DNA from: Bacteroidota bacterium | GTDB lineage: Bacteria > Bacteroidota > Bacteroidia > B-17B0 > Aurantibacillaceae | Direction of reading: 5' to 3' | DNA length: 64,000 bases | Assembly: GCA_016711805.1 (NCBI GenBank) | Contig: JADJSH010000010.1 | Span: forward strand, 1 to 64,000 | Shown here: in pieces, positions 13,099 to 38,006 of the stretch | Layout: each line of letters opens with the position of its first letter | Numbering within the stretch: the stretch's first letter is position 1 | Notes under the pieces: generated by a model | Told to the model about the DNA's origin: nothing | The model's database searches: none | What the model saw: the letters and a program-made list of their open reading frames with translations, nothing else | Made by a program: the position numbers and the translations under genes

Positions 13099-14160
13099 AT
13101 GAAAAAACTCCTACTCTCTCTTACATTAATCTCTACTTTTTGTTTCGCTCAAATTCCCGTGGGATATTATAATACAGCACAAGGCTTAACGGGCAATACA
13201 TTAAAAATAGCCTTGCACAATATTATTGATAATCATACGCAAGTTTCTTATAATGGCTTATGGACAGCCTATCAAAAAACAGATAGAAAAACCAACGGAA
13301 AAGTATGGGACATGTATAGCGATATTCCATCAGGAACAGCTCCGTATAATTTTACATTTGTAACTGACGAATGTGGAAATTATGCCGTAGAAGGCGATTG
13401 TTATAATCGTGAACATAGCTGGCCACAAAGTTGGTTCAACTCTGTTTCAGGACCAAGTTCTGATTTATTTCACGTGTATCCAACGGATGGAAAAGTAAAT
13501 GGTATAAGAAGTAATTATCCTTATGGAAATGTAGGCGTTGCAAGTATCACCACATTGAACGGAAGTAAATTAGGAAGTTGTTCTGATTTAGGATACAGCC
13601 AAATCGTGTTTGAACCAATTGACGAATACAAAGGAGATTTAGCAAGAACGTATTTTTATATGAGTACGCGTTATTATAGCGAAGATGGTGGTTGGTCAAC
13701 ATCAGGTGCAACCAATAAATCAAACATATTACCTTGGCAAATGAATGTATTATTACAATGGAATCAACAAGATCCAGTAAGTGCAAAAGAAATTGCGCGT
13801 AACGATTCTGTTTATTACAAATTTCAAAATAACCGAAATCCGTTTATTGATCATCCCGAGTGGGCTGATAGTATTTGGACTTTTGATACGGAAGTTTTTA
13901 TAAAAGAAATCCAATTACAACATTCCTTTTCTGTGTTTCCAAATCCAGCAAGTAACTCATTTCAAATTATTAATAAAAGTAATTCTCAAAAAAACGTAAC
14001 CATAAAAATCACAACAATCACAGGAGAATTATTAGAAGAGAAAGTAGTTTCTTTACAAGAATCTGTTTTAATTAATTGCGAAGATTGGGCAAAAGGAATC
14101 TATATTATAAACTTGAGTTCAGAGCAATCAGTTTCTAATAGTATGTTTATAAAAGAATAG
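13099..14160 (+). CDS. secreted endonuclease I family nuclease with T9SS C-terminal sorting domain
   Basis: Signal peptide; endonuclease I signature YNREHSWPQSWF; C-terminal Por_Secre_tail-like segment (FSVFPNPASNSFQI...KGIYIINL...). Confidence 0.8.
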   Translation: MKKLLLSLTLISTFCFAQIPVGYYNTAQGLTGNTLKIALHNIIDNHTQVSYNGLWTAYQKTDRKTNGKVWDMYSDIPSGTAPYNFTFVTDECGNYAVEGDCYNREHSWPQSWFNSVSGPSSDLFHVYPTDGKVNGIRSNYPYGNVGVASITTLNGSKLGSCSDLGYSQIVFEPIDEYKGDLARTYFYMSTRYYSEDGGWSTSGATNKSNILPWQMNVLLQWNQQDPVSAKEIARNDSVYYKFQNNRNPFIDHPEWADSIWTFDTEVFIKEIQLQHSFSVFPNPASNSFQIINKSNSQKNVTIKITTITGELLEEKVVSLQESVLINCEDWAKGIYIINLSSEQSVSNSMFIKE

Positions 14161-14264: not shown

Positions 14265-14663
14265 TTAGTTCTCTGAAATGGAAATCATTTTAAAAGGTAA
14301 ATCAACCATACCTTCAAAATTTTTGCCTGCAGCTAAAATATCTTCGTCGTTTTCTTCGTAAATCCAATTAATAGTTACCGGAGATCCAACACCCTTATTG
14401 AATTTTTCTAACTTTTTAAACACACTTAATAAACAAGCTGAAGAACTACTGTTATAGTATTCTAATTGAATATTTAAGATAGTTGCATTTTTAGGGTTGG
14501 GATCTGCTAAATATTTATCAAGCGCCGCAAATAATGGATTATAAAATTCAATGGAATTTTCAGGAATGGAACGACCAGAAATAGTTAATTCTCCTTTCAC
14601 TAAATCAAAATTAATATCAGGTGTATTTGATGTACCGTTAATTGAATATTTTTCCATGACCAT
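14265..14663 (-). CDS. DUF1987 family protein (SiaC-like partner-switch protein)
   Basis: N-terminal TPDINFDLVKGELTISGRSIPENSIEFYNPLFAALDKYLAD closely matches the SiaC/DUF1987 signature (TP.I....G.L.I.G.SYPEN...F......W...FLAD). Confidence 0.55.
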   Translation of the reverse strand: MVMEKYSINGTSNTPDINFDLVKGELTISGRSIPENSIEFYNPLFAALDKYLADPNPKNATILNIQLEYYNSSSSACLLSVFKKLEKFNKGVGSPVTINWIYEENDEDILAAGKNFEGMVDLPFKMISISEN

Positions 14664-16960: not shown

Positions 16961-17425
16961 TTGAAATTCATCGATAAATACTTTACCTTTAAAACACAAA
17001 TATCCATGAATATCCTAACAAAAAATAGTACTACTGTTATTTCCAGAAAAGAAATACCAAATGTTATTACTGTTATTTTAAATTCAGATCATATTATTGA
17101 GGTAAAATGGAGTGAAGCCCTAACTGAAATTGAAAAAGAACATTTAATCAATTTAACAACTATTATCAAAGAATTAGGGCATGGAAAAAAAATGTTAGTG
17201 TACATTGACACCTACAACTTTATGGCAATCACTTCTGAGGCCAGAGAATACGCTGCCACCAAAGAAGCTAGTCAATATACCTTAGCAAACGCTGTATTAG
17301 TAGATGCGTTGCCAAAAAAAATATTATTTAATTTTTACATGAAAATTAATAAACCCGTTGTTCAAACAAAAGGCTTTAGCGCTAAAGAAAGTGCGATGAA
17401 CTGGCTAAAAGAATGGCAGTTTTAA
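16961..17425 (+). CDS. hypothetical protein (possible STAS/SpoIIAA-like fold)
   Basis: 154 aa, no strong motif; family guess only. Confidence 0.35.
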   Translation: MKFIDKYFTFKTQISMNILTKNSTTVISRKEIPNVITVILNSDHIIEVKWSEALTEIEKEHLINLTTIIKELGHGKKMLVYIDTYNFMAITSEAREYAATKEASQYTLANAVLVDALPKKILFNFYMKINKPVVQTKGFSAKESAMNWLKEWQF

Positions 17426-22950: not shown

Positions 22951-25900
22951 TTACCCAACATTTTTGGCAACATAAATAATATTAGAAGTGAGTTTAGTTG
23001 TATCTAATACTTCTAACGTTAAATGAGGATGCTTAGCAATGGTATCTTTAATTAAAGTTCCACTCACAAAGTGTAAACCATCGGTCTTAGTTTTATTAAA
23101 ACCAAATACTTTGGTGCTCATAAACTCGGTGTACCAAGTTCCTTTTTGGCGAGTAGCAATGTCTTTATCCGCATCACGAATCACCAACACACCACCTTTA
23201 TTTAATTTAGACACGCAATTTTCAATCACTTGAATTTGTTGCTCTTCTTTTAAATAATGTAAGACATCGCTGATAATAAATCCGTCCGCTTGAGGAAAAT
23301 CAAATACAGTGACATCACCCACAGCAAAAGAAAGCTTATCTGATTTGTCTATACAACCATCAGCCACCGCAATTTTTTCATCATCATAATCAACGCCTAA
23401 AATTTCGCGGTTACGTCCCTTGAACATTAACATATAAGGCAAGAAACCATAACCACAGCCTACATCCACAATTTTTCCAGTTTTAGGCATTAGGCTTTCA
23501 AACAATTGATAATTATTTTCTAAGCCAGTTTTAATGCGACAGTACCATTCTAACACAGGTCCTTTAAAAATATAATTTCGAATTAAACGAGAACGGAAGT
23601 AGCCAACGGTTTCTTTTTCTTGTTTTAATAAGTCGTATTCTTTGCGCATTAACTTACAAATAGCTTTGGTGCGTTCTTGGTATGTCGCTCCAAAAGAAGT
23701 ATCCGTCGGTTTAATGCGTTCTAATAATTTAACCGTTAAAGAACCATCTTTAAAATGAAAATCACCTTTAGTTACCGTATCCCCTGCTCCATGTAATAAT
23801 AAAGGAACAATATCCAATTGCATTTGTTCTGCTAATAAAAAGGCGCCTTTATGGAAACGCAAAATATCACCTGTCACGCTGCGTGTTCCTTCAGGGAAAA
23901 TTAAAATAGAATAACCTTGTTTTACTAATTCGGTTAACGACGGAATACATTTTTCGTAACCATCCGAAGCACGGTAATAATCAGCTTTCTTTACAATCCA
24001 CCCGTAAAAAGGAGAATTGTAAACCCAATCGTTTGTAAAGACAACAATTTTAGGATATAGCTGTAACGTTAGCGCTAAATCAATATGCGATTGATGGTTG
24101 GAAATAATGATCGCTGGTTTTTCAAACGTTTCGTTGTGTGGATTTACAATTGTTTTTTTGACATTGAAAAAGCAAGCCAAAATAAAACGGAACGTGTACA
24201 TAATGATATAATGAAATATCAATTTACGAGTAGCTGTTTTGGCTGGGAAGATTGTAAATAGTAAAGCACCACAAATTGTAATCAACAATGACCCTACAAC
24301 AAAACCAAAAAAGCCAACAACCGTAATTAAAATGTATTTAGCAGTAAATGGCAGCAAGCCTTTATTTCTTCGATTTAAAACCAACCAATTAAATAATAAT
24401 GGTTGTGCGATAAAAGAAATAAAAACAACACACAACATACCAATTAACGTAATCAAAGCAATAGATTGCAAAGCAGGATGTTTAGCAAATACCATCACTC
24501 CTATTCCTATAATAGTAACTAAAGCTGATAAGAGAATAGATGATTTAAAAGAGTTCAATGTTTTTTTACCAAACTTATATTCGTTAAGTAAGCCATCCAT
24601 GATAAAAATACTGTAATCGTCTCCCAAACCAAAAATAAAAGTTGAGATGATGATATTAATGATATTGAATTTAATACCAAATATGCCCATGATTCCTAAA
24701 ATCCACAACCAACTAATTAACATAGGTAAGAAGTTAATCACTGCTAATTCAATACGTCCGTGATTTAACAACATAAAGCCAAATACCAAAATAGAAGTAA
24801 TCATTAAAATGGTATTGAAATCAGAACTGATCACTTCAACAAACTTTGAAGTCAGATTTTGTTTATCAAATACCACAATGTTTGGATTGGATTCAAAGGC
24901 TTTATAAATCAATTCTCTATTCTCAGCATCCACTTTTACATGGTTAATAATAGACGGCTTACCATTTACTTTCCCAATCCATTCTTTAAACAAATATTTA
25001 TTCAACGAATCCGAATCGGCCTGAGATAATTTAGAAACAGGATTATCTAATAAATTGTAAAACGATTGAAAAGCGGTTTCTTTAAACTTAAAATTCAATC
25101 CTGTAGCAATTAATTGTTGTTTTAAACTATCTTTTTTAGCTTGGTTAAAGAATTTATTCCAACGGTTAATACGCACTTCTTGTTCTTTGTCAGACATAAA
25201 CAAGGCACTTACCGAAGAATATTTTTTAATAAGACCTTGTTGCTTTAATGCCTCTAACTTTTCTGAAACAACCGTGTTATTATCTAAAGCTTCGTTTAAT
25301 GTATTTCCGTTACTAAATACGTAAACCGAACGCGCGGCAAAATTATTAACTTCATCTAAATGTTTTTCAGCATCACGAGTTTCTTTGGTCATGAAACTCA
25401 TTTTGTTCATGTCACTTTCAAATTCAACATCACCTGCAAAAAATGTAAATACAATGGTTAAGATGAAAGCAGAAATTACAATTACTTTGTTTTTATCAAA
25501 ACGATAAGCCGTAAATCTATCAATCCATGAATGTGGAGCTTCATCCGTCTCAACATGCTCTTTTTCTTTTCTGAAACTAAATTTTAATAATTGAGGCAAG
25601 ACAAAAATAGAGAACAACATCGCTCCTATCAACGAAAAGGCCGCAAACAAACCAAAATCATGTAGCGCTTCTGACTTAGCAAATAATAAACTTAAAAAAG
25701 CACCAACGGTGGTTGTACAGCCAATTAACATGGGCACGGTTAAATCTTGTAAAACTGTTTTTACATCTCGTGTATGTTTGTAATGCGTAAAAAAATGTAA
25801 GGAATAATTAATGGCAATACCCAATACCACCGCCCCTGCTCCTATAGCAATGGCAGAGACAACACCTTTTAATAAAAACAAAAAGCTTAAGGCAAATGCC

Positions 25901-26808
25901 ATCCCAAAACCAACTGGAAATAAAATAAAAATAGTAACTAAGGGATTTTTAAAGTACAAGCCTAATAATAAAGCAATCACAATGACAGCAACACTAGAAG
26001 TATATAAACTATCTTTGCGCAACTGATTAGCATTACCAGCCGATACAACAGCCGCCCCAAAATTCTCTATTAAAACCGTTTCATTACTAAATGCTTTACA
26101 AGCACTATCCACCACATTTATTAAGTGCGTGTTGCCTTTGGTATCATTAGGTAAATGAGCAGGTGTGATAAATAACAACACATGCTGATGATCTTTAGTA
26201 ACAATGTGACTATTATACGTTTCAAATTTTTCATCTAACTGAATGTTTTGTAATTTTTTAAGCGCAATGGGCGTAAAGTTGAGCGGATCGCGTTGGATAT
26301 ATTTCCCTAAAACAACACCAGAAGGAGAAAGCAAGGTGGCATAATCTCTTTCAATGGTAGCATCAATACTATCTTTTAAAATGAGGTTTGAGATTTTCGC
26401 GTAATCCTTTTCTTCTAAAAACAGTGGCAAATTATGATAAAACACATCATACACTTGCTGCATTCTATCGTCTGATAAAGTATAAGTAATATCAATATAA
26501 TCTTCGTTACTTAACTTTTGTTGGATATGGCTATAAACAGAATCTGTTTGAGCAATTAGCTGATCGATGTTCTCTCCATTTTTAGTAGAAGCATGCACAA
26601 TTAATTTATCCTTAGATTTTAAATTATCTAAAATTGAATTGATGGATTGCGAATTTTTATCAGAAGGAACAAAACGAGTAATGTCTTCTTCTAATTTAAT
26701 TTTTGAAGCAAAAAATCCTAACGCACCACAAGCAATTAAAATTAATAAGATGAAAAATAACTTTCGTTTTTGGAAAAAGGAATATATAAAATACGAAAAG
26801 TTAAACAT
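22951..26808 (-). CDS. trifunctional fusion: MMPL/RND-like exporter + lysophospholipid (LPLAT/PlsC-type) acyltransferase + class I SAM-dependent methyltransferase
   Basis: 1285 aa. Two repeats of periplasmic domain plus TM bundle with GLGDDY MMPL-type motif. Then acyltransferase motifs NHQSHIDL (HX4D) and FPEGTR. Then methyltransferase motif I VDVGCGYG and motif VLVIRD. Confidence 0.8.
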   Translation of the reverse strand: MFNFSYFIYSFFQKRKLFFILLILIACGALGFFASKIKLEEDITRFVPSDKNSQSINSILDNLKSKDKLIVHASTKNGENIDQLIAQTDSVYSHIQQKLSNEDYIDITYTLSDDRMQQVYDVFYHNLPLFLEEKDYAKISNLILKDSIDATIERDYATLLSPSGVVLGKYIQRDPLNFTPIALKKLQNIQLDEKFETYNSHIVTKDHQHVLLFITPAHLPNDTKGNTHLINVVDSACKAFSNETVLIENFGAAVVSAGNANQLRKDSLYTSSVAVIVIALLLGLYFKNPLVTIFILFPVGFGMAFALSFLFLLKGVVSAIAIGAGAVVLGIAINYSLHFFTHYKHTRDVKTVLQDLTVPMLIGCTTTVGAFLSLLFAKSEALHDFGLFAAFSLIGAMLFSIFVLPQLLKFSFRKEKEHVETDEAPHSWIDRFTAYRFDKNKVIVISAFILTIVFTFFAGDVEFESDMNKMSFMTKETRDAEKHLDEVNNFAARSVYVFSNGNTLNEALDNNTVVSEKLEALKQQGLIKKYSSVSALFMSDKEQEVRINRWNKFFNQAKKDSLKQQLIATGLNFKFKETAFQSFYNLLDNPVSKLSQADSDSLNKYLFKEWIGKVNGKPSIINHVKVDAENRELIYKAFESNPNIVVFDKQNLTSKFVEVISSDFNTILMITSILVFGFMLLNHGRIELAVINFLPMLISWLWILGIMGIFGIKFNIINIIISTFIFGLGDDYSIFIMDGLLNEYKFGKKTLNSFKSSILLSALVTIIGIGVMVFAKHPALQSIALITLIGMLCVVFISFIAQPLLFNWLVLNRRNKGLLPFTAKYILITVVGFFGFVVGSLLITICGALLFTIFPAKTATRKLIFHYIIMYTFRFILACFFNVKKTIVNPHNETFEKPAIIISNHQSHIDLALTLQLYPKIVVFTNDWVYNSPFYGWIVKKADYYRASDGYEKCIPSLTELVKQGYSILIFPEGTRSVTGDILRFHKGAFLLAEQMQLDIVPLLLHGAGDTVTKGDFHFKDGSLTVKLLERIKPTDTSFGATYQERTKAICKLMRKEYDLLKQEKETVGYFRSRLIRNYIFKGPVLEWYCRIKTGLENNYQLFESLMPKTGKIVDVGCGYGFLPYMLMFKGRNREILGVDYDDEKIAVADGCIDKSDKLSFAVGDVTVFDFPQADGFIISDVLHYLKEEQQIQVIENCVSKLNKGGVLVIRDADKDIATRQKGTWYTEFMSTKVFGFNKTKTDGLHFVSGTLIKDTIAKHPHLTLEVLDTTKLTSNIIYVAKNVG

Positions 26809-26917
26809 AGGGTTTAAAGATAGTAAAAAAGCTATTTTAACATTATATAATTTAAAAAAAATACTTTTATATTAAGTAATAAAATGATTATATTTACCTA
26901 AGAAGAATAAATAAATC

Positions 26918-27460
26918 ATGCAAAAAACAATCATCATATTAGCTCTTATTTTCTCTAAAATTATAGTAGGACAAGTATTTCTGTGCAAAGATGGGAATAC
27001 GAAATTCACTTCAGAAGCCCCCCTTGAATTAATTAAAGCACAATCCAACAAAACATCAGGCGTTTTAGATTGTGCTACTAAAAATGTAGCCTTTTCTATC
27101 GCAATTGAATCATTTGATGGGTTCAATAGTGGACTTCAAAAAGAGCATTTCCGTGAAAATTACATGGAAACAACTAAATATAAAGCCGCCACATTTAAAG
27201 GAAAAATTATTGAAGATATTGATTTTACTAAAAATGGAACTTATACCGTGAGGGCAAAAGGAACATTTAATATACATGGCACTGAAAAAGAAAAAATAGT
27301 CAAAACAAAAATCACCATTAAAGATAAAGAAATACTTGTAGAAACGTCTTTTGAAGTTCCTTTAGATGATCATAATATCAAAATACAAAAGGTTGTTAAC
27401 CAAAAAATTGCTTCTATTATTATGGTGGAAGTAAAAGTGAACTTAAAACCTAAAGCTTAA
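26918..27460 (+). CDS. YceI-like periplasmic (polyisoprenoid-binding) family protein
   Basis: Signal peptide; YceI-like pattern (K.TSG.LD..TKNVAFSI...F.....L.KEHF). Confidence 0.7.
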   Translation: MQKTIIILALIFSKIIVGQVFLCKDGNTKFTSEAPLELIKAQSNKTSGVLDCATKNVAFSIAIESFDGFNSGLQKEHFRENYMETTKYKAATFKGKIIEDIDFTKNGTYTVRAKGTFNIHGTEKEKIVKTKITIKDKEILVETSFEVPLDDHNIKIQKVVNQKIASIIMVEVKVNLKPKA

Positions 27461-27465
27461 CCAAA

Positions 27466-30400
27466 ATGATGATTAAACGTGGTATTATAGTATTAAGTTT
27501 AACTATCTACTCTACTTTCTTATTTTCTCAACTTCAGGTAAAAAACTACTTTTCCATAACAGGCAAAAAAGATGTAGCGATAAATACTATTACCCAAGAC
27601 AACAATGGCTATTTATGGCTAGGTACCAAAGAAGGTCTTTATAAATTTGACGGTAAAGCATCGCAAGATGTGTTTAAGGATTATCCACAGCTAAAACAGG
27701 AAATAACATCTGTTTTTATTTCATCCAATAAAACAATATGGGTTGGAACTAAAACCGGTAAAGTCTTTTCGTATAAAAACAACAAACTCGATTCGCTCAG
27801 TTTTGGTAAAATACCTAATGAAGAAAGAATTACATCCATTTGCCAAGTAAACTCCATCACTTTTATAGGAACTTATGGAAATGGCCTGTACTCTTTATCT
27901 GATAACCAACTAAAGCATTATGACTCTGAACACGGTTTAAGCGACAATGTAATTTATTCGATTGAAACTGATGGCCAAGACAAGATTTGGTGCGGAACCG
28001 ATGCTGGAATTACGCAGATTAAAAATTTAAAAGCAAAGCCATACTTCAGTATTATCTCAAATAAAGATGGTTTACCAGATAATATTACTCGAGATTTATA
28101 TTTAAATGACAATCGGCTTTTAATTTCAATGCAAGATTCTGGCGCTTGTTATTATAACATAGCAACTAGCAAAATAGAACGTATTCCATTTTTCAATAAC
28201 TGGAATTTAGGAACGATTATTAATGGCGTTGAAGAGTCTCCCAAAAAGATAACCGTTGCTACTGAAAAAAATGGCATCATTGTGATAGATAATGGAAAAA
28301 TTTCGGTTTATAAATACGAAACAACTATTCAAGGTAGCACTATTAATGAGTTATTTGTAGATAATGCTGGTCAAATATGGCTTGCTTCTAAAAAAGGTTT
28401 AAACCAATTATACTCACGACGCTATGATTTTATCAATAATACAAATGGATTAGCTGATGATAAAATACTTGCCTTAGCCACAGATAACGATCATTCTATT
28501 TGGATTGGAACTTCCATGGGCATTTCTAAAATAATGGAAGATGATGAAGGGAAAATTGTAGTTAGTAAAATACAAGACTTAACAAAATATACGATTTCCT
28601 GTGCATCAAAAGCTCCAAACGGTGATATTTGGTTTGGAACGTACGGAAACGGTATTATCATTTTATGTTCTGAAACCAATAAAAACATCATTATCAATTC
28701 AAAAGATAATGGTCTATCAAACGATAATATTTGCAACATCTATTTTGCAGATAAAAACACAGTTTATATTTCAACTCTTGGCGGTGGTTTGATAAAAGCC
28801 TCCATCAGTGAAAATGATTCTAAGTTATTTAAAGTCGAAAAAACATATACTGAAACCGAAGGTTTGGGAAGTAATTATGTATACGCCTCTTTAACCGACA
28901 ATAACTCGAAACTATATATAGCAACTGATGGCGGTGGTTTACAAGTATTAGAAAACAATATGTTTGTGAGTATTACCAAAAAATTTAAATTAAACTCAAA
29001 TACTGTATTTTCAATTTGTAAAGATAAAAATAATGCAATTTGGGCAACCACCAATGCCAATGGTGTTATTAAATACGACGAAAAAACAATCACCTATTTT
29101 AATATGTCAAACGGCTTAAGAGATGAACAGCCGCAACAATTGATTTCAGCAGACAATACAATATATGCAATCAACTCAAAAGGAATTGATAAAATAAATT
29201 GTAAAGATAATACTGTGAGTTATTATGACTTGTTTGATGGCGACCTAGAACCAAATTTAAATGCCATTTTCTTTCACCAAAACAAATTTTATAGCGGCAC
29301 CAACAATGGAGTTTTAATCTTTCGAACAAATCAAGAATCAAAAGATAGTATTAAACCAACTATATTTATTAAGGGCTTGCAAGTTAATTATAAAGACTTC
29401 AATATAGATTCTACATCTGAGTTTAAGTATAACCAAAATAATATTTCTATTGAATTTGCTGGAATTTGGTTAAAAAATTCAGATAAACTTACCTATCGAC
29501 ATAAATTAATTGGAGCGGAAGAAAAATGGGTGTACACCAACGAAAGCAAATTAATTAATTACAACAATTTAAGTTCTGGTAATTACACTTTTGTGGTGCA
29601 ATCAAAAAACGAAGAAGATGTATGGAGTAATGAAGCTACCTATTCCTTTACAATTCTCACCCCAATTTGGTTACGTTGGTGGTTTTGGGTATTAGTAGTA
29701 GGAGTTGGTGGACTTAGTATCTACGCATTTTTAAAATACAGATTAAAAGCCCTCCAAAAGGAAAATTTATTATTAGAACAACGTGTTAACGAAAGAACTT
29801 TTGAAATCGAAAAACAATCAAAAATCATTGAAGATAAAAATGTGGCCTTAGAACAATTATCGCTTGTTGCCAGCAGAACCGATAATGTGGTGTTGATTTT
29901 GGATGCAGAAGGACGATTAGAATATGTAAATGAAAGTTTTGTTCGCCTAAATAGAATTACTTTAGAAGAACTAAAAATAAAAGCGGGAGAGACGATTTTC
30001 GAAATCAGCAATAATCCAGATATTAAAACTATTGTTGCAGAGGCTGTTTATCATAAAAAATCGGTTAATTACGAAGCTTTAAATAAAGTAGCTGATGGTG
30101 TTGAAATTTGGGAATCATCTACCCTTACACCAATTTTTGATGAAGATGGAATTCTTAAAAAAATCATCATTATTGATACCGATGTTACAGAGCGAAAAAA
30201 ACAAGAGCAAATCATCTATCAAAAAAATAAAGATATTACCGATAGCATTTCATATGCCCGTAAAATACAACATGCCATCTTACCACAAGATGATTTAATA
30301 AAAAAATATTTGCCACATTCGTTTGTACTATACATGACAAAAGATATTGTGAGTGGAGATTTTTATTGGTTTACACATATAAACGGTTCAAGTATTATAG

Positions 30401-31002
30401 CTGCTGTAGATTGCACAGGTCACGGTGTACCAGGAGCATTTATGAGCTTAATTGGATATAATATATTAAACAAAATTGTAAACGAACAAAAGATAACTGA
30501 TCCAAAAGATATTTTATTTGAATTAAATAATGGCATTTTAGAAGCCTTATATAAAAACGAATCTGAATCAAAAGATGGAATGGATATTGCCATTTGCAAA
30601 ATTAATCATACCGAAAACACTGTTGATTACGCAGGTGCCATGAGGCCATTATGGATTATAAAAAATAATGAACATAAAGCAACTGAGCTTGTTGAAGTGA
30701 AAGCTGATAAAATACCAATTGGAACAAAACAGGAAAGTAGAGACGAAATTATAAAATACACCACTCACACCATTCAAGTAAATAAAGGTGATAGCTTTTA
30801 TATATTTACAGATGGCTACGCCGATCAATTTGGTGGTGCTAAAAACAAAAAATATAGTACTGGGAAATTTAAAGAATTATTGATAAAAAATTCTCAACTA
30901 GACTTTTCTACACAAGAAAAAAATTGTAAAATTGAGCATCACCAATGGAAAGCCAATTTTGAACAAGTTGATGATATTTTAGTAATAGGATTTACCATAT
31001 AA
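27466..31002 (+). CDS. sensor protein: periplasmic two-component-regulator beta-propeller repeats + Y_Y_Y domain, TM helix, coiled-coil, PAS domain, C-terminal PP2C/SpoIIE serine phosphatase
   Basis: Repeated W.GT..GL beta-propeller motifs; single TM (WLRWWFWVLVVGVGGLSIYAF). PP2C region ...DISYARKIQHAILP...VSGDFYWF...AAVDCTGHGVPGAFMS...FYIFTDGYADQFGG typical of RsbU/SpoIIE phosphatases. Confidence 0.8.
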   Translation: MMIKRGIIVLSLTIYSTFLFSQLQVKNYFSITGKKDVAINTITQDNNGYLWLGTKEGLYKFDGKASQDVFKDYPQLKQEITSVFISSNKTIWVGTKTGKVFSYKNNKLDSLSFGKIPNEERITSICQVNSITFIGTYGNGLYSLSDNQLKHYDSEHGLSDNVIYSIETDGQDKIWCGTDAGITQIKNLKAKPYFSIISNKDGLPDNITRDLYLNDNRLLISMQDSGACYYNIATSKIERIPFFNNWNLGTIINGVEESPKKITVATEKNGIIVIDNGKISVYKYETTIQGSTINELFVDNAGQIWLASKKGLNQLYSRRYDFINNTNGLADDKILALATDNDHSIWIGTSMGISKIMEDDEGKIVVSKIQDLTKYTISCASKAPNGDIWFGTYGNGIIILCSETNKNIIINSKDNGLSNDNICNIYFADKNTVYISTLGGGLIKASISENDSKLFKVEKTYTETEGLGSNYVYASLTDNNSKLYIATDGGGLQVLENNMFVSITKKFKLNSNTVFSICKDKNNAIWATTNANGVIKYDEKTITYFNMSNGLRDEQPQQLISADNTIYAINSKGIDKINCKDNTVSYYDLFDGDLEPNLNAIFFHQNKFYSGTNNGVLIFRTNQESKDSIKPTIFIKGLQVNYKDFNIDSTSEFKYNQNNISIEFAGIWLKNSDKLTYRHKLIGAEEKWVYTNESKLINYNNLSSGNYTFVVQSKNEEDVWSNEATYSFTILTPIWLRWWFWVLVVGVGGLSIYAFLKYRLKALQKENLLLEQRVNERTFEIEKQSKIIEDKNVALEQLSLVASRTDNVVLILDAEGRLEYVNESFVRLNRITLEELKIKAGETIFEISNNPDIKTIVAEAVYHKKSVNYEALNKVADGVEIWESSTLTPIFDEDGILKKIIIIDTDVTERKKQEQIIYQKNKDITDSISYARKIQHAILPQDDLIKKYLPHSFVLYMTKDIVSGDFYWFTHINGSSIIAAVDCTGHGVPGAFMSLIGYNILNKIVNEQKITDPKDILFELNNGILEALYKNESESKDGMDIAICKINHTENTVDYAGAMRPLWIIKNNEHKATELVEVKADKIPIGTKQESRDEIIKYTTHTIQVNKGDSFYIFTDGYADQFGGAKNKKYSTGKFKELLIKNSQLDFSTQEKNCKIEHHQWKANFEQVDDILVIGFTI

Positions 31003-31011
31003 AACATCTTT

Positions 31012-31854
31012 ATGTCCATTTTAATTGCCGATAGCGGCTCTACAAAAACCGATTGGGTTTTACTAGACAACAATAATATCATTATTCAATTTCAAACAAT
31101 TGGTTTTAATCCCTATTTTCAAAGTAGCGATGATATCTATACTGAAATAAAGAATAAATTAATTCCCATTCTTCACGATCAACTTCATTCCATTAAACAT
31201 ATAGCTTATTACGGTGCAGGTTGCTCTACTCCCGAAAAAGTGCAAGTTGTGAAACAAGGTTTATACTTAGCATTCGGCAACATACACTCTGAAGTAAACC
31301 ATGATTTATTGGCGGCAGCAAGAGCGCTTTGCGGTAAAGAAAAAGGTATAGCATGTATTTTGGGTACAGGTAGTAATAGCTGTTTATATGATGGAACCGA
31401 AGTAACAGAAAATGTACCTTCAGTTGGTTATTTATTTGGAGATCATGGCAGTGGCGCCACCATTGGAAGAACCTTTGTACAACATTATTTTGATGGTAAA
31501 TTACCTATTCATTTAGTTACAGCTTTTGAAAATGCTGGTTATCACCGCGAAGTTATCTTAGAAAATGTTTACAAAAAGCCTATGCCAAGTAAATACTTGG
31601 CAAGCATCATGAAATTTTTATCGGAGTATAACAATGATAGTTATGTAAAAGGTTTAATTAAAAGTTGTTTTCTGGATTTTTTTGATGCACAAGTATCAAA
31701 GTACACAGATGCTAAAAGTTTGCCTGTAAATTCCGTTGGTTCTATTGGCTTTTATTATAAAGAAATATTAGCTGATGCTGCAAAAGAAAAAGGCTTTATC
31801 ATTGGAAATATTATTAAATCTCCTATCGACGGATTAATTAAATACCATAGCTAA
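31012..31854 (+). CDS. BadF/BadG/BcrA/BcrD-type ATPase (N-acetylglucosamine kinase-like)
   Basis: N-terminal phosphate-1 motif ILIADSGSTKTDWVL; ~280 aa ASKHA-fold. Confidence 0.6.
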   Translation: MSILIADSGSTKTDWVLLDNNNIIIQFQTIGFNPYFQSSDDIYTEIKNKLIPILHDQLHSIKHIAYYGAGCSTPEKVQVVKQGLYLAFGNIHSEVNHDLLAAARALCGKEKGIACILGTGSNSCLYDGTEVTENVPSVGYLFGDHGSGATIGRTFVQHYFDGKLPIHLVTAFENAGYHREVILENVYKKPMPSKYLASIMKFLSEYNNDSYVKGLIKSCFLDFFDAQVSKYTDAKSLPVNSVGSIGFYYKEILADAAKEKGFIIGNIIKSPIDGLIKYHS

Positions 31855-32630
31855 TGTCTTTTGTCATTATCCCATTAACCGCGTTAATTGCTTCTATATT
31901 AACTTTTTTTTCGGGATTTGGATTGGGCACCATTTTACTGCCAGTCTTTACTATTTATTATCCGGCACCTATTGCTGTGGGATTAACGGCCATAGTTCAT
32001 TTTTTAAATAATGCTTTTAAAATTGGATTAGTATACAAACACATTAATTGGAAAGTCGTTTTAAAATTTGGTATACCATCATTAATAGCTGCTTTGTTTG
32101 GAGCCTTCGTATTAGAGAGATTGTCAGAATCATCACTTGTTTTATATTCGTATCACATAAACAATCACACCTTTCAAATCAATTTATTTAATGTGTTAAT
32201 TGGAACACTAATTATTTTCTTTTCATTGTTTGAAGTCATTCCATACTTCAAAAATTTAAGTTTTAACGAAAGTAAATTAACGATTGGTGGTTTATTAAGT
32301 GGTTTTTTTGGAGGATTAAGCGGACATCAAGGAGCATTACGTAGTGCCTTTTTAGTTCGGTTAAATTTAAGTAAAGAGACATTTGTGTCAACGGGTACGG
32401 CAATTGCTTGCATCGTAGATGTTGGCAGAATGAGTATTTATGCGATGACTTTTAATTTTACTCACGTTCAAAACAATTCAACAGTAATTTTAATGGCTGT
32501 TGGTGCTGCATTTTTAGGTGCTTTAATTGGCAATAAATTATTAAAGAAAACCACCTTAGGATTTTTAAAATGGTTTGTAACGATTTTTATGATTAGTATC
32601 GCCTTATTAATGATATTAGGTATTTTATAA
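31854..32630 (+). CDS. sulfite exporter TauE/SafE family membrane protein
   Basis: Two repeated 4-TM halves with FFSGFGLGTILLPV and GGLSGHQGALRSAFLV motifs. Confidence 0.65.
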   Translation: MSFVIIPLTALIASILTFFSGFGLGTILLPVFTIYYPAPIAVGLTAIVHFLNNAFKIGLVYKHINWKVVLKFGIPSLIAALFGAFVLERLSESSLVLYSYHINNHTFQINLFNVLIGTLIIFFSLFEVIPYFKNLSFNESKLTIGGLLSGFFGGLSGHQGALRSAFLVRLNLSKETFVSTGTAIACIVDVGRMSIYAMTFNFTHVQNNSTVILMAVGAAFLGALIGNKLLKKTTLGFLKWFVTIFMISIALLMILGIL

Positions 32631-34052: not shown

Positions 34053-36007
34053 TTAATTAATAATTGTTTTTTGTTTAAAATCGTTGTCGATGGTTGTTTG
34101 TATGAGTTTTGCAAAGTCTTCAATAGTCATTGTGCCTATATCGCCTTTACCATGTTCTCGCACTGCAACAGTCCCTTCTTCAGCTTCTTTTTCGCCAACA
34201 ACTAACATAAACGGTACTTTGTTTACTTCGTTATCGCGAATTTTTTTGCCAATTTTTTCGTTTCTATCATCAACAAGGCCGCGAATATCGGAAATATTTA
34301 ACAATTCTGAAACTTTTTTTGCATAATCGTTATATTTTTCACTAATCGGTAAAATTGCATATTGGTCGGGTGTTAACCAAAGTGGGAAATTACCACCACA
34401 ATGTTCAATTAAAACCGCTATAAAACGCTCTAAACTTCCAAATGGCGCTCTGTGAATCATTACAGGACGGTGTTTTTGATTATCCGAACCTGTATATTCC
34501 AATTCAAAACGCTCAGGTAAGTTGTAGTCTACTTGAATAGTTCCTAATTGCCATTTACGCCCTAAAGCATCTTTTACCATAAAATCCAGTTTTGGACCAT
34601 AAAAAGCTGCCTCGCCAGTTTCAACTACAGTTCTTAGCCCTTTTTCGGCTGCTGAATCAATAATAGCTTGTTCTGCTAAAGCCCAATTTTCATCAGAACC
34701 AATGTATTTAGTTTTATTTTCAGGGTCTCTTAATGATACCTGAGCTGTATAATCTTTAAAATCTAAAGCATTAAATACATATAATACTAAATCAATTACT
34801 TTTAAAAACTCTTCTTTTACTTGATCCGGACGAACAAATAAATGCGCATCATCTTGAGTAAAGCCACGCACACGAGTTAAGCCATGTAATTCTCCTTTTT
34901 GTTCGTAACGATATACCGTTCCAAACTCTGCGTAACGCACAGGCAAATCTTTATAAGATTTTGGTGACGATTTATAAATTTCGCAGTGATGCGGGCAATT
35001 CATTGGTTTTAAGTAAAACTCCTCACCTTCGTGTGGTGTTTTAATTGGTTGAAATGAATCTGCTCCATATTTTTCATAATGTCCTGAACAAACGTATAAT
35101 TCCTTTTGAGCAATATGAGGCGTTACGACTGGTAAATAACCAGCTTTCATTTGTGCCTTTTGCATAAACTGAATTAAACGTTCGCGCAACATGGCACCTT
35201 TTGGCAACCATAATGGTAAACCAAGTCCCACTTTTTCAGAGAAAGTAAATAATTCTAATTCCTTACCTAACTTACGATGATCACGCTTTTTTGCTTCTTC
35301 TAATAAAACTAAATATTCTTTTAGTTCTTTATCCTTAGGAAAAGCAATACCATAGATACGAGTCAACATTTTGTTTTTCTCGTCGCCTTTCCAATAAGCA
35401 CCAGCAATATTTAAAACCTTAACCGCTTTAATAAATCCAGTGTTTGGAATGTGCGGCCCACGACATAAATCCGTAAAATTACCTTGAGTATATAATGAAA
35501 TATTACCGTCGTCTAAACGCTCTAATAAATCTAATTTATAGTGATCGCCTTTATCTGTAAAGTACTTAATAGCATCGGCTTTACTAATTTCTTTGCGAAT
35601 GTATTCGTTGCTTTGACGAGCTAACTCTAACATTTTTGCTTCAATTTTCTCGAAATCAGCAGGCGTTAAGGTTTCTCCATTCAAATCCACATCGTAGTAA
35701 AAACCATTTTCTAAAGGAGGACCAACCCAAAATTTCACATTTGGATACAAAGCTTCTAAAGCCTCTGCTAATAAATGGGCTGATGAATGCCATAAGGTGT
35801 ATTTTTTCCTTCGGCATCATTCCACGTTAATAAGCTAAGTTTACTATCTTCATTAATTGCTCCGTTAGCGTCAATTACTTCGCCGTTAACTTTTGCTGAA
35901 AGCACATTTCGTGCTAATCCTTCGCTAATGCTCTGTGCTACTTGCATAGAGGTGGTTCCTTTTGGGTATTCGCGGATGGAACCATCTGGTAGAGTTATTT
36001 TTATCAT
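34053..36007 (-). CDS. thrS: threonine--tRNA ligase, reading frame interrupted by a 1-nt deletion in a homopolymer (probable assembly error)
   Basis: 79-aa ORF (TGS domain) plus 565-aa ORF (N2, catalytic, anticodon-binding domains). Restoring one A in the A6 run (plus-strand T-run 35802-35807) gives ...[29 protein letters not shown]..., a continuous ~645-aa ThrRS with the conserved HxxxH motif. Confidence 0.85.
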
Positions 36008-36228
36008 AATGTTGCCCCACTTACAAATGTGGGTTTTAATTTAGGGGAACAAAGATAATGGAATTTGTTAATTTCTAAGGATTTTGAGGTTAATATCTGA
36101 AGTTTTTTAATTAAACGAATTCATTCATAATAATTTAACAATTATTTCAAATTAGATGTTGTAACATTTAATGTTGTAACTTATATTTGTCAAATAATTA
36201 TAAAACATTAATCAATAATATTAAATTT

Positions 36229-36825
36229 ATGAAAACAACTTTTAAAACATTAGTAGCAGTAGCTGCAATCTCTTTAAGCGCTAAAGCACAAACAAACTGG
36301 AATGTAGATGGATCTCACAGTAAATTAGGATTCGCTGTAACTCACATGATGGTAAGCGAAACAGAAGGGAAATTTAAAATTTACGAAGGAAAAGTATCTT
36401 CAAAAGGAGATTTAGATTTTACAGATGCTAAAATTGACTTTACTGTAGATGCGGCTAGTATCAATACTGATGATGAAAAAAGAGATGGTCACTTAAAAAG
36501 CCCTGACTTTTTTGATGTTGCTAAATTTCCAAAAATTACTTTCGTGAGTAAATCCATGAAACCTGGAAAAGTAAAAGGTACTTATACGTTAACTGGAGAT
36601 TTAACGATGCATGGAGTAACTAAATCAGTTTCTTTAACTGCTATCGGTGCTTCTAAAATAGTAAAAGATCCATACGGAATGGAGCGTTATGCATTTAAAG
36701 TAACTGGTACGATTAACCGTAAAGATTTTGGTTTAGCTTGGAACGCAGCTTTAGAAGCTGGTGGTGTTGCCGTTAGCGAAGATGTTCGTTTAGATATTAA
36801 TGTAGAAATTACAAAAGCTAAGTAA
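36229..36825 (+). CDS. YceI-like periplasmic family protein (second paralog)
   Basis: Signal peptide MKTTFKTLVAVAAISLSAKAQ (real start probably this internal Met, not 36187); YceI pattern GSHSKLGF.V.HMMVSETEGKF. Confidence 0.75.
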   Translation: MKTTFKTLVAVAAISLSAKAQTNWNVDGSHSKLGFAVTHMMVSETEGKFKIYEGKVSSKGDLDFTDAKIDFTVDAASINTDDEKRDGHLKSPDFFDVAKFPKITFVSKSMKPGKVKGTYTLTGDLTMHGVTKSVSLTAIGASKIVKDPYGMERYAFKVTGTINRKDFGLAWNAALEAGGVAVSEDVRLDINVEITKAK

Positions 36826-36841
36826 TTTAAAAAATAGTAAA

Positions 36842-36873
36842 TTAGTCCCCAGCTTTAACTGGGGACTTTTTTT
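36842..36873 (+). terminator. rho-independent terminator
   Basis: agtccccagctttaactggggacttttttt. Confidence 0.65.
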
Positions 36874-36885
36874 ATACTTAAAATT

Positions 36886-37335
36886 TTGAGATTAGAAGAC
36901 GAAATACAACAGAAAAAATTTAAAAGCATACAACAAAAGTTAATGCTTAATTTAATTTATACTACCAATTGGCTAACATCCAAGCAAGATTCTCTTTTTA
37001 AAGACTCTGATATTACAGTGCAACAATACAATGTTTTACGCATATTAAGAGGTCAATACCCAAATCCATGTAGTATAAAATTAATTAAAGAACGCATGCT
37101 GGACCGTATGAGCGATACCTCAAGAATCGTAGATAAGCTTTATACAAAAAAACTACTTGAAAGAAATGAATGTCCTGATGATAGAAGAAGTGTAAACGTC
37201 GTTATTTCTGATAAAGGATTAGAGTTATTGAAATCATTAGATTATGTAGATGATTTATCAAAACAATCCTTAAAGTCATTAACAACAGCCGAGATCAACA
37301 CTTTGAATGAGCTTTTGGATAAATTAAGGGATTAA
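36886..37335 (+). CDS. MarR family transcriptional regulator
   Basis: Winged-helix region QQYNVLRILRG...RMLDRMSDTSRIVDKLYTKKLLER...DRRSV. Confidence 0.8.
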   Translation: MRLEDEIQQKKFKSIQQKLMLNLIYTTNWLTSKQDSLFKDSDITVQQYNVLRILRGQYPNPCSIKLIKERMLDRMSDTSRIVDKLYTKKLLERNECPDDRRSVNVVISDKGLELLKSLDYVDDLSKQSLKSLTTAEINTLNELLDKLRD

Positions 37336-37394
37336 TTATTCGAAATAAGATTTTAGAAGTGAGATTTAAGAAGTAGAATAAAAACTTCCTACCT

Positions 37395-38006
37395 TTGCAA
37401 TATATTAAACTCGATTTCATGTTAGGACTTAAATTAGAAACTGACCCTCGTTGGGTTAATATTGTAGAAAAAAATATTGAAGAAATTCTAACGGATCACG
37501 CTTACTGCGAGCAAAAGGCTGCTACCAATGCTATTTCTATAATGATTAGCTATCCATATTATACTGATTTAGTGGAAGAAATGGTGAAACTAGCCCAAGA
37601 AGAGTTGTCGCACTTTGAAATGGTTCATGTGAAAATAAAGGAGCGTGGATATAAACTTGGCTTTGAGCGTAAAGACGAATATGTAGGAGAATTATATAAA
37701 TTCATGCGTAAAGGTGATCATCGAAAAGAAATTGTATTAATTGATCGCTTGTTGTTTGGCGCTATGATTGAGGCCAGAAGCTGCGAACGTTTTAAATTAT
37801 TATCAGAGCAAATTAACGACGATGACTTAAAATCTTTTTACAGAGATTTAATGATTAGTGAGGCTACTCACTACACAACATTTATTGGGTTTGCCCGAAA
37901 GTATGGAGCTCATGCCGAAAACATTGATGATAGATGGCAACAATGGCTCAACTATGAAGCTGAATTAATGAAAAACTACAGTAAAAAAGAAACGATACAC
38001 GGATAG
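37395..38006 (+). CDS. miaE: tRNA-(ms2io6A37)-hydroxylase MiaE-like ferritin-fold protein
   Basis: Di-iron ligand pattern DHAYCEQKAA ... EELSHFEM ... EARSCERF ... EATHY typical of MiaE. Confidence 0.6.
   Translation: MQYIKLDFMLGLKLETDPRWVNIVEKNIEEILTDHAYCEQKAATNAISIMISYPYYTDLVEEMVKLAQEELSHFEMVHVKIKERGYKLGFERKDEYVGELYKFMRKGDHRKEIVLIDRLLFGAMIEARSCERFKLLSEQINDDDLKSFYRDLMISEATHYTTFIGFARKYGAHAENIDDRWQQWLNYEAELMKNYSKKETIHG

What the first reader, a model, noticed from the sequence alone, without database searches (positions are those of the whole stretch)
22951..27460. 1285-aa single-chain fusion of MMPL-like exporter, LPLAT acyltransferase and SAM methyltransferase, adjacent to a YceI lipid-binding protein
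One ORF encodes (i) a two-repeat MMPL/RND-type transporter with a GLGDDY motif, (ii) a lysophospholipid-acyltransferase domain with intact HX4D (NHQSHIDL) and FPEGTR motifs, and (iii) a class I methyltransferase (VDVGCGYG). The three activities (export, acylation, methylation) are those found as separate genes in aryl-polyene and flexirubin-type lipid or pigment clusters. Here they are fused, and no ketosynthase, ACP or dehydratase genes are nearby. The immediate downstream gene is a secreted YceI-like (polyisoprenoid/lipid-binding) protein. Together they look like a self-contained module that acylates, methylates and exports an amphiphilic molecule, possibly for delivery to the outer membrane via YceI. 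The substrate and product are unknown.
Basis: partly seen in the sequence, partly recalled or inferred. Interest (0 to 1): 0.7.

Follow-up and report, generated by a model that had tools for sequence, protein, structure and literature searches.

The report
Flexirubin-type three-domain exporter, detached from cluster
The 1285-aa transporter/acyltransferase/methyltransferase fusion is real, but it belongs to a widespread, already named Bacteroidota family (FlxU/Fjoh_1078 type) that normally sits inside flexirubin pigment gene clusters; here it sits alone, and its YceI neighbour is incidental.

Summary
The ORF (22951-26808, minus strand, 1285 aa) and its three domains are confirmed: a two-repeat MMPL/RND part, a PlsC-like acyltransferase with HX4D and FPEGTR, and a class I SAM methyltransferase. 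It is not a chimera. More than 100 independent assemblies carry the same full-length architecture.

The fusion is not new. [quoted passage not shown] A published table gives that name to FlxU of Chitinophaga pinensis and Fjoh_1078 of Flavobacterium johnsoniae, both in flexirubin clusters. In homologues 44-58% identical to the window protein, the gene lies between a GT2-DUF2062 gene (FlxT) and an FAD oxidoreductase gene (FlxV), beside KS/CLF/ACP/LolA/DarB genes.

The window belongs to a monophyletic, nested clade of uncultured Bacteroidota MAGs (65-99% identity). In this clade the gene is detached from all of these partners, yet it remains under strong purifying selection in every domain.

The YceI link fails. 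That gene is upstream and divergent, not downstream. It lies 6 bp upstream of a PP2C sensor gene on the same strand. It is adjacent in only 12 of 44 clade loci and absent from a collinear relative about 95% identical in DNA.

Whether these genomes keep a flexirubin or aryl-polyene pathway elsewhere could not be tested. Interest is low to moderate.

The parts
22951..26808 (-). Whole gene: FlxU/Fjoh_1078-type trifunctional protein, 1285 aa plus stop codon. It looks like a stand-alone transcription unit, with a divergent gene at the 5' end and a convergent gene at the 3' end.
   Evidence: ORF list and translation. Pfam and NCBIfam. Full-length homologues. RefSeq name on homologues. The exact protein is MBK8367432.1.
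24379..26808 (-). Residues 1-810: MMPL/RND (HAE3/HpnN-like) lipid transporter part. It has 12 predicted TM helices and two periplasmic domains (about residues 38-267 and 461-662). TM4 carries AINYS (332) and TM10 carries GLGDDY (727).
   Evidence: Pfam MMPL in 2 stretches. TIGR00921 1.2e-38 and HpnN TIGR03480 2.4e-27, both below the equivalog cut-offs. PDB HpnN 6wu0/5khn. Hydropathy. 20% identity to E. coli ApeM, E = 3e-8.
23614..24378 (-). Residues 811-1065: PlsC-like lysophospholipid acyltransferase. It has a two-helix membrane anchor (about residues 825-881), HX4D (NHQSHID, 904-910) and FPEGTR (971-976).
   Evidence: PF01553 6.3e-19. PDB PlsC 5kym 6.7e-14 over residues 828-1052. AF2 model against 5kym: TM-score 0.83-0.84, rmsd 2.7-2.9 A. 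31% identity to E. coli ApeD, E = 1e-16.
22954..23613 (-). Residues 1066-1285: class I SAM-dependent methyltransferase (motif I VDVGCGYG, 1114-1121) with a conserved N-terminal helical extension (about 1066-1105). The methyl acceptor is unknown.
   Evidence: Methyltransf_25/31/11/12. Fold matches only to generic small-molecule methyltransferases. Not similar to ApeB. Invariant motifs.
26918..27460 (+). Neighbour, judged NOT part of the system: a divergent, weak YceI-like gene (180 aa with a hydrophobic N-terminus). It is the first gene of a pair with the sensor phosphatase.
   Evidence: PF04264 1.6e-10. Adjacent in 12/44 clade loci. Absent in collinear L009.
27466..31002 (+). Neighbour, judged NOT part of the system: a Reg_prop/Y_Y_Y/PAS/PP2C (SiaA-like) sensor phosphatase gene, 6 bp after the YceI-like gene. 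It occurs with that gene in the 12 loci that have it. Together they form a 4.2-kb presence/absence insert.
   Evidence: Pfam and NCBIfam (SiaA 5.8e-50). Co-occurrence. Indel against L009.
31012..32630 (+). 280-aa BadF/NagK-like ASKHA protein plus TauE. The 280-aa gene is the commonest divergent neighbour of the gene in the >=71%-identity part of the clade. This is probably inherited synteny only.
   Evidence: Weak Pfam and NCBIfam hits. The 280-aa gene is found within 4.6 kb upstream in 25/34 clade loci, 0/25 outside the clade, and not in the 65-66% subclade.

Best explanation

Shown:
- A 12-TM RND/MMPL module is followed directly by a PlsC-like acyltransferase, which is held at the membrane by a two-helix anchor, and then by a soluble SAM methyltransferase.
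- All catalytic motifs are intact and every domain is under strong purifying selection.

Inferred mechanism (by analogy with ApeD, ApeJ, ApeM and ApeL of the proteobacterial aryl-polyene lipid pathway):
- If the C-terminus is cytoplasmic, as in other RND proteins, the acyltransferase domain works at the cytoplasmic face of the inner membrane. There it esterifies an ACP-bound acyl or polyenoyl chain onto a lyso-lipid-type acceptor.
- The methyltransferase domain methylates this lipid or its precursor. The acceptor is unknown.
- The proton-motive-force-driven MMPL domain extracts the product from the inner membrane and passes it to periplasmic LolA-like carriers for the outer membrane.

In the window's lineage one ancestral rearrangement detached the gene from its usual partners FlxT (GT2-DUF2062) and FlxV (FAD oxidoreductase) and from the KS/CLF/ACP genes. 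It most likely still does the same chemistry for a pigment-lipid pathway encoded elsewhere in the genome. The adjacent YceI-like gene belongs to a separate signalling pair and is not a partner.
For: Architecture and motifs.

Family identity:
[quoted passage not shown]'.
- PMC12968099 assigns this name to FlxU/Fjoh_1078, flanked by FlxT (DUF2062) and FlxV (phytoene desaturase).
- A plasmid carrying Fjoh_1078-1089 complemented a flexirubin-negative mutant (PMC3992019).

Canonical context in homologues below 62% identity:
- GT2-DUF2062 upstream in 31/32 loci, FAD oxidoreductase downstream in 35/36, KS/CLF present in 22/29 loci longer than 15 kb.
- DarB, DarG and DarH score above the curated cut-offs in L005.
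- Full KR-KS-ACP-...-LolA-ApeI-FlxT-fusion-FlxV arrays occur in L090 and L091.

Derived detachment: the window clade is monophyletic and nested within the in-cluster homologues in an NJ tree (no bootstrap support was computed).

Conserved function:
- dN/dS is about 0.02-0.06 in every domain within the clade.
- Only 8 (MMPL), 0 (LPLAT) and 1 (MT) clade-specific fixed differences stand against 189 (MMPL) and 61 (MT) shared conserved positions; the shared count for LPLAT was not printed in that comparison. This is less divergence than between two in-cluster clades.

Analogy to the aryl-polyene system:
- LPLAT resembles ApeD (1e-16), MMPL resembles ApeM (3e-8) and FlxT resembles ApeJ (9e-34).
- The roles of ApeD, ApeJ, ApeM and ApeL come from PMC8253772 and bioRxiv 10.1101/2020.12.19.423268.

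Precedent for split clusters: the dar and flx loci of C. pinensis are separate.
Against: - No partner gene was found. None of 31 cluster proteins hit the 64-kb window, about 7 kb beyond its right end, or about 994 kb of (partly redundant) flanks from 55 loci of the clade.
- A search with FlxT listed 120 homologues down to 56% identity. None lay on a contig that also carries a window-clade fusion, and the three inspected were all in-cluster. This is weak evidence because the list is truncated about where clade orthologues would be expected.
- The FlxT-FlxU-FlxV triad is otherwise almost never broken.
- No member of the family has been characterised biochemically, so every catalytic step is inferred.
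- The methyltransferase domain is not an ApeB homologue. PMC12968099 lists a separate methyltransferase (J) among the C. pinensis flx genes, so the methyl acceptor is unknown.
Confidence: 0.55

Rival explanations
1. The flexirubin/aryl-polyene pathway was lost in this clade of small-genome, uncultured Bacteroidota. The trifunctional protein was kept as a stand-alone machine that acylates, methylates and exports some other envelope lipid, so its core function does not depend on the pigment.
For: - 0/43 clade loci have FlxT, 0/44 have FlxV, and 0/32 loci longer than 15 kb have KS/CLF. No cluster protein hits about 994 kb of clade sequence.
- No FlxT homologue was seen on any contig that carries a clade fusion, including contigs of 0.98-2.17 Mb.
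- The gene is under strong purifying selection although alone.
- No partner is conserved across the whole clade.
Against: - The catalytic domains show almost no clade-specific fixed changes relative to in-cluster homologues (0 in LPLAT, 1 in MT), so there is no sign of a substrate switch.
- The absence tests cover only the flanks, not whole genomes.
- Split flexirubin loci are known.
Confidence: 0.3
2. One reading: the fusion and the adjacent secreted YceI-like protein form a self-contained module in which YceI carries the exported lipid to the outer membrane.
For: - The genes are adjacent (110-bp divergent spacer) in the window and in 11 other loci.
- YceI-family proteins are known to bind lipids or polyisoprenoids (general knowledge).
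Against: - The genes are divergent, not co-transcribed.
- The YceI-like gene lies 6 bp upstream of a PP2C sensor gene on the same strand and occurs only with it.
- It is adjacent in 12/44 clade loci and 0/36 other loci.
- The pair is absent from a collinear relative about 95% identical in DNA.
- Canonical clusters use LolA-like carriers instead.
Confidence: 0.04
3. The ORF is an assembly chimera or a decaying pseudogene.
For: The window assembly does carry indel errors: thrS is frameshifted near 35800 and a MaeB-type malic enzyme is split near 46690.
Against: - The same uninterrupted 1280-1300-aa architecture occurs in more than 100 clusters from independent NCBI, JGI, ENA and Logan assemblies, including complete cultured genomes.
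- The 90%-identity cluster that holds the exact window protein has 90 member sequences.
- dN/dS is about 0.03.
Confidence: 0.01

Closest known systems
[quoted passage not shown]
   Same: - Same single-chain three-domain architecture and length (about 1280 aa).
- Full-length alignment at 44-46% identity to RefSeq-named members in Chitinophaga rupis and Mucilaginibacter.
- All motifs are invariant.
   Different: - The gene is not located between FlxT and FlxV, and no KS/CLF/ACP/LolA/Dar genes are nearby.
- The host clade is uncultured and its pigment status is unknown.
- FlxU itself has only a proposed export role (PMC3992019).
ApeM + ApeD (+ ApeB) of the E. coli CFT073 / Xenorhabdus doucetiae aryl-polyene lipid pathway
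   Same: - The MMPL/RND exporter is homologous to ApeM (20% identity, E = 3e-8).
- The LPLAT domain is homologous to ApeD (31% identity, E = 1e-16).
- The usual partner FlxT is homologous to ApeJ (29% identity, E = 9e-34).
- The proposed logic is the same: acylate a lyso-lipid at the inner membrane, then export by an RND protein plus LolA-like carriers.
   Different: - These are separate proteins in Proteobacteria and fused here.
- The methyltransferase domain is not related to ApeB beyond the class I fold (E = 0.79).
- The D-Y and N-Y transmembrane motifs sit in the opposite repeats in ApeM.
HpnN (hopanoid RND transporter; PDB 5khn, 6wu0) and the HAE3/MMPL subfamily
   Same: Two-repeat 12-TM RND lipid transporter with two periplasmic domains. 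It is the best solved relative of the transporter part.
   Different: - Scores are far below the equivalog cut-offs (95 vs 752 bits for HpnN, 133 vs 352 for HAE3).
- HpnN has no fused enzymes.
- No hopanoid genes are present here.
PlsC (1-acyl-sn-glycerol-3-phosphate acyltransferase; PDB 5kym)
   Same: Same fold, including the N-terminal two-helix membrane anchor (TM-score 0.83-0.84, rmsd 2.7-2.9 A), plus the HX4D and FPEGTR motifs.
   Different: - It scores below the NCBIfam cut-off for AGP_acyltrn (65 vs 103 bits).
- It is fused to a transporter and a methyltransferase.
- The acyl donor and acceptor are unknown.
- The database name '1-acyl-sn-glycerol-3-phosphate acyltransferase' on this protein over-specifies its function.

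Membership tests
FlxU/Fjoh_1078-type trifunctional MMPL/LPLAT/methyltransferase | Single chain of about 1280 aa with MMPL (two repeats), PF01553 acyltransferase and class I SAM methyltransferase domains, in that order | tested here: met
FlxU/Fjoh_1078-type trifunctional MMPL/LPLAT/methyltransferase | End-to-end sequence homology to members that carry the RefSeq name | tested here: met
   44-46% identity over residues 1/8-1282/1285 to L086 (C. rupis WP_089913919.1) and L074/L080 (Mucilaginibacter WP_121808204.1, WP_091222654.1). The window clade nests inside the family tree.
FlxU/Fjoh_1078-type trifunctional MMPL/LPLAT/methyltransferase | Catalytic and relay motifs conserved (GxGDDY in TM10, HX4D, FPEGTR, SAM motif I) | tested here: met
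   Invariant columns in alignments A1 and A2. Positions.
FlxU/Fjoh_1078-type trifunctional MMPL/LPLAT/methyltransferase | Genomic position inside a flexirubin/aryl-polyene cluster, between FlxT (GT2-DUF2062) and FlxV (FAD oxidoreductase) | tested here: not met
   0/43 and 0/44 loci in the window clade, against 31/32 and 35/36 in other members. No cluster gene in the window. This is a context feature, not a sequence criterion.
FlxU/Fjoh_1078-type trifunctional MMPL/LPLAT/methyltransferase | Host genome encodes or produces flexirubin-type or aryl-polyene pigment | not testable with these tools
   Only 64 kb plus about 7 kb of this genome and +/-10-kb flanks of relatives could be read. All clade members are uncultured MAGs.
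Aryl-polyene (Ape) attachment/export proteins | Homology to ApeM (RND exporter) | tested here: met
   BLASTP 20% identity over 446 aa, E = 3e-8. Distant.
Aryl-polyene (Ape) attachment/export proteins | Homology to ApeD (lysophospholipid acyltransferase) | tested here: met
   31% identity over 105 aa spanning HX4D to FPEGTR, E = 1e-16.
Aryl-polyene (Ape) attachment/export proteins | Homology to ApeB (aryl head-group methyltransferase) | tested here: not met
   Best BLASTP E = 0.79.
RND HAE3 / HpnN-type lipid transporters | Score above the curated family cut-off | tested here: not met
   TIGR00921 132.7 vs 351.9 bits. TIGR03480 95.3 vs 751.85 bits. It is a superfamily relative only.
RND HAE3 / HpnN-type lipid transporters | 12 TM helices in two repeats, two periplasmic domains, and charged/Tyr relay residues in TM4 and TM10 | tested here: inconclusive
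   The topology fits. TM10 has D730-D731-Y732, but TM4 has N334-Y335 instead of D-Y. Proton coupling is inferred, not shown.
LPLAT / PlsC acyltransferases | HX4D and (F)PEGTR motifs and the PlsC fold with a two-helix membrane anchor | tested here: met
   (TM-score 0.83-0.84 to 5kym).
Class I SAM-dependent methyltransferases | Rossmann-like fold with glycine-rich motif I | tested here: met
   Methyltransf_25/31/11/12 score above their cut-offs. Fold matches have probability 1.0. The substrate class is not resolved.
   Divergent orientation. Adjacent in 12/44 clade loci and 0/36 others. Absent in collinear L009.

The most novel reading that the evidence does not exclude
In this clade of uncultured Bacteroidota MAGs the flexirubin/aryl-polyene pathway has been lost. 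The FlxU-type protein survives as an autonomous, single-polypeptide 'acylate-methylate-export' machine for a different envelope lipid. That would mean the family's core job is general outer-membrane lipid delivery rather than pigment export.
Probability: 0.25. Interest if true: 0.5.

Novelty: new member of a known kind. Interest (0 to 1): 0.22.

Why it matters
The finding corrects an over-reading. The three-way fusion is the standard, already named form of this protein in Bacteroidota flexirubin clusters, and the YceI neighbour is a strain-level insertion.

The residual value is modest but real:
- The family is large (at least 266 GTDB species genomes) and uncharacterised biochemically. Most databases mis-name it '1-acyl-sn-glycerol-3-phosphate acyltransferase'.
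- The detached but strongly constrained copy in a whole clade is a natural experiment. It could show whether FlxU-type proteins serve only pigment lipids or a broader lipid-export role.
- The comparison shows that the methyltransferase domain is not the ApeB-type aryl methyltransferase, so its substrate is an open question even in model flexirubin producers.

Tried and rejected
1. Assembly chimera: rejected. Over 100 independent full-length homologues exist, even though the window has frameshifts elsewhere.

2. YceI partnership: rejected.

3. The 280-aa BadF/NagK-like divergent neighbour as a partner: rejected. It was not found next to the gene in the 65-66% subclade or outside the clade.

4. 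Looking for the missing partners. None of these gave a hit:
   - tblastn of 31 cluster proteins against the window and all clade loci.
   - Extending the view beyond the window's right end. The left-end look-up found no record.
   - A database search with FlxT, matching 'longest_contig' lengths to contigs that carry clade fusions. The one length match (20623 bp) was a coincidence between two different contigs. P0230 and P0218 turned out to be ordinary in-cluster loci.
   - This approach cannot exclude partners elsewhere, because the hit list is cut at 120 and only +/-10 kb can be read.

5. The sigma-70 promoter and terminator scan was uninformative: counts were at shuffle level, and other promoter types are not covered by this scan.

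6. Fold search of the methyltransferase domain did not narrow the substrate class.

7. The first attempt at the representative search failed on the 1200-aa limit. It was rerun with residues 86-1285.

Full report
**1. What is in the sequence**

The window holds an ATG-started ORF at 22951..26808 on the minus strand, 1285 aa.

Domain searches support all three domains:
- Pfam finds MMPL in two stretches (3.3e-16), Acyltransferase PF01553 at residues 891-1004 (6.3e-19), and Methyltransf_25/31/11/12 at about 1111-1215 (1.6e-10 and weaker). All are above the curated cut-offs.
- NCBIfam places the transporter part nearest the HAE3 and HpnN RND lipid-transporter families, but far below their equivalog cut-offs.

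Hydropathy gives the RND pattern. There are 12 TM helices with two large periplasmic domains, followed by two further hydrophobic helices at about 825-881. These two helices align with the two-helix membrane anchor of Thermotoga PlsC:
- phmmer hit to PDB 5kym, 6.7e-14, over residues 828-1052.
- An AlphaFold model of residues 811-1285 (mean pLDDT 77) superposes on 5kym with TM-score 0.83-0.84 and rmsd 2.7-2.9 A.

The C-terminal half of the model matches only generic small-molecule class I methyltransferases.

**2. Corrections to the observation**

The 180-aa YceI-like ORF (26918..27460; PF04264 1.6e-10) is on the plus strand. It is therefore upstream of the fusion gene and divergent from it, not downstream. 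A 1178-aa Reg_prop/Y_Y_Y/PAS/PP2C sensor phosphatase gene follows it after 6 bp (SiaA-like, 5.8e-50). Next come a 280-aa BadF/NagK-like gene and TauE.

Beyond the fusion's 3' end lie a convergent CHAP/AIM3-like ORF, DnaJ-KTSC and peptidase M3. The gene therefore looks like a single-gene transcription unit.

**3. Not a chimera, not rare, not unnamed**

- A search of 5.8 billion proteins returned 120 listed hits at 57-98% identity. Nearly all are 1258-1311 aa and carry the same three Pfam families. They come from NCBI, JGI, ENA and Logan assemblies.
- An exhaustive HMMER search of 50%-identity representatives listed 150 more at 34-47% identity. Most are 1260-1300 aa and align over nearly the whole 1200-residue query.
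- A scan of one genome per GTDB species found 266 encoding stretches. They include cultured Mucilaginibacter species and Chitinophaga rupis.
- The exact window protein is on record as MBK8367432.1, named '1-acyl-sn-glycerol-3-phosphate acyltransferase'.
- A published gene table gives the trifunctional name to FlxU of C. pinensis and to gene 78 of the F. johnsoniae flexirubin cluster (Fjoh_1078). Its neighbours there are a DUF2062 protein (FlxT/79) and a phytoene desaturase (FlxV/77) (PMC12968099).
- Schoner et al. listed flxP-flxU as a putative export set. They note that a plasmid carrying Fjoh_1078-1089 complemented a flexirubin-negative mutant (PMC3992019).

**4. Canonical context**

I compared 92 loci, using tblastn of reference proteins and counting only loci with enough flank. 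Among homologues less than 62% identical to the window protein:
- a GT2-DUF2062 gene is immediately upstream in 31/32 loci;
- an FAD/amine-oxidase-type oxidoreductase gene is immediately downstream in 35/36;
- KS/CLF genes occur in 22/29 loci longer than 15 kb.

In L005 the neighbours pass the NCBIfam cut-offs for DarB, flexirubin DarG and DarH.

L089-L091 show the export set PolysaccDeacetylase-LolA-x-ApeI-FlxT-fusion-FlxV. In L090 and L091 it is preceded by KR-KS-ACP-LipA_AT-ApeP-TE-KS-x-ACP-KS-CLF.

Comparison with the genetically studied E. coli CFT073 ape cluster (loci fetched) shows:
- the LPLAT domain is homologous to ApeD (31% identity, 1e-16);
- the MMPL part is distantly homologous to ApeM (20% identity, 3e-8);
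- FlxT is homologous to ApeJ (29% identity, 9e-34);
- the methyltransferase domain is not similar to ApeB (E = 0.79).

**5. The window's clade is different**

All 54 loci at 65-100% identity to the window protein come from uncultured MAGs or metagenome contigs, several labelled as lake, groundwater or treatment-plant samples. They lack every cluster gene:
- FlxT 0/43, FlxV 0/44, KS/CLF 0/32;
- none of 17 further cluster proteins hits about 994 kb of clade sequence or the window.

An NJ tree places this clade as a single group nested inside the in-cluster homologues, sister to the L005/L047/L069/L059 group (no bootstrap support was computed). The detached state is therefore derived.

The gene is not decaying:
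- dN/dS is about 0.02-0.06 in each of the MMPL, LPLAT and MT regions for unsaturated pairs.
- Clade-specific fixed substitutions number 8 (MMPL), 0 (LPLAT) and 1 (MT), against 189 (MMPL) and 61 (MT) shared conserved positions; the shared count for LPLAT was not printed in that comparison. This is fewer than between two in-cluster clades.

**6. The YceI neighbour**

- Within the clade the YceI-like gene is adjacent in 12/44 loci, each time with the PP2C sensor gene beside it. Outside the clade it is adjacent in 0/36.
- L009 is collinear with the window on both sides at about 95% DNA identity, and its fusion protein is 99% identical. It lacks window positions 26830-31008, which hold the YceI-like and PP2C genes.
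- The pair is a presence/absence insert in the divergent spacer, not a partner.
- Canonical clusters use LolA-like carriers.
- A second, much stronger YceI gene lies 9 kb away, next to MarR and MiaE.

**7. Mechanism**

Shown:
- the domain order;
- the PlsC-like anchor directly after TM12, which puts the acyltransferase and methyltransferase on the cytoplasmic side if the C-terminus is cytoplasmic as in other RND proteins;
- intact motifs and strong constraint.

Inferred, from the proteobacterial aryl-polyene lipid work (PMC8253772 and bioRxiv 10.1101/2020.12.19.423268). There, ApeD acylates a lysophosphatidylglycerol, ApeJ adds GalNAc and the polyene, and ApeM with the LolA/LolB-like ApeL/ApeN moves the product outward. 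By analogy:
- the LPLAT domain esterifies an ACP-borne acyl or polyenoyl chain onto a lyso-lipid-type acceptor;
- the methyltransferase domain modifies the lipid or a precursor (acceptor unknown);
- the MMPL domain extracts the product for delivery to the outer membrane.

TM10 keeps D730-D731-Y732, while TM4 has N334-Y335. E. coli ApeM shows the reverse arrangement. Proton coupling is therefore plausible but untested.

**8. What remains open**

I could not read whole genomes of the clade. I therefore cannot tell whether the pathway genes lie elsewhere (my preferred reading, 0.55) or were lost and the protein serves another lipid (0.3). The near-absence of clade-specific changes in the catalytic domains favours unchanged chemistry. 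The complete absence of partners in everything I could read keeps the second reading alive.

**9. Verdict**

It is wrong about novelty and about YceI. This is a new, detached member of a known and already named family. Interest is low to moderate (0.22).

Noticed in passing
window 34053-36007 (minus strand): thrS is frameshifted. Residues 1-70 of a relative's ThrRS match frame -1 (36007-35798) and residues 68-648 match frame -3 (35804-34062). In an essential gene this is probably an assembly indel error.
   Followed up: partly
window 45136-47405 (plus strand): A MaeB-type malic enzyme/PTA fusion is split into two ORFs (45136-46701 and 46725-47405). The frame changes near 46690, next to a T homopolymer. 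This is probably another assembly indel.
   Followed up: partly
window 26830-31008 vs L009 9494-9577: The YceI-like plus Reg_prop/PAS/PP2C sensor pair is a 4.2-kb presence/absence polymorphism between genomes about 95% identical in DNA. It was always found inserted between the fusion gene and the 280-aa BadF-like gene.
   Followed up: yes
window 36187-38006: A second, canonical YceI gene (Pfam 8.5e-49) is followed by MarR and MiaE. The same trio occurs in L001.
   Followed up: no
window 14265-14663, 16961-17425, 27466-31002: Parts of a SiaABC-like partner-switching system are scattered across the window: a SiaC-family phosphoprotein, a DUF7793 protein and a SiaA-like PP2C sensor. SiaC also recurs near the fusion gene in relatives (L001, L006, L088).
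   Followed up: no
window residues 332-336 and 727-732 of the fusion; E. coli ApeM (L094 42897-45212): The transmembrane relay motifs are swapped between families. The FlxU type has N-Y in TM4 and D-D-Y in TM10. E. coli ApeM has D-Y in TM4 (SADYT) and N-Y in TM10 (GINYT).
   Followed up: partly
fusion residues 1066-1285 (window 22954-23613): The methyltransferase domain is unrelated to the ApeB methyltransferase of aryl-polyene clusters (E = 0.79), and a separate methyltransferase (J) is listed among the C. pinensis flx genes. The substrate of this domain is therefore unknown even in model flexirubin producers. The linker at 1066-1105 is almost invariant.
   Followed up: partly
L003/L004 (65-66% identity subclade), locus L003 8897-9964: In this subclade a DUF900 (putative alpha/beta hydrolase) gene ends 37 bp upstream of the fusion gene on the same strand. 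Its conservation across the subclade was not checked.
   Followed up: no
window 3231-5600, 13099-14160, 43877-45019: Three predicted T9SS cargo proteins carry Por_Secre_tail domains: a lysyl-oxidase-like protein, an endonuclease I and an esterase.
   Followed up: no
database annotation of the family: Most public records name this 1285-aa protein simply '1-acyl-sn-glycerol-3-phosphate acyltransferase' or 'MMPL family transporter'. NCBIfam has no model that reaches its cut-off for it.
   Followed up: partly
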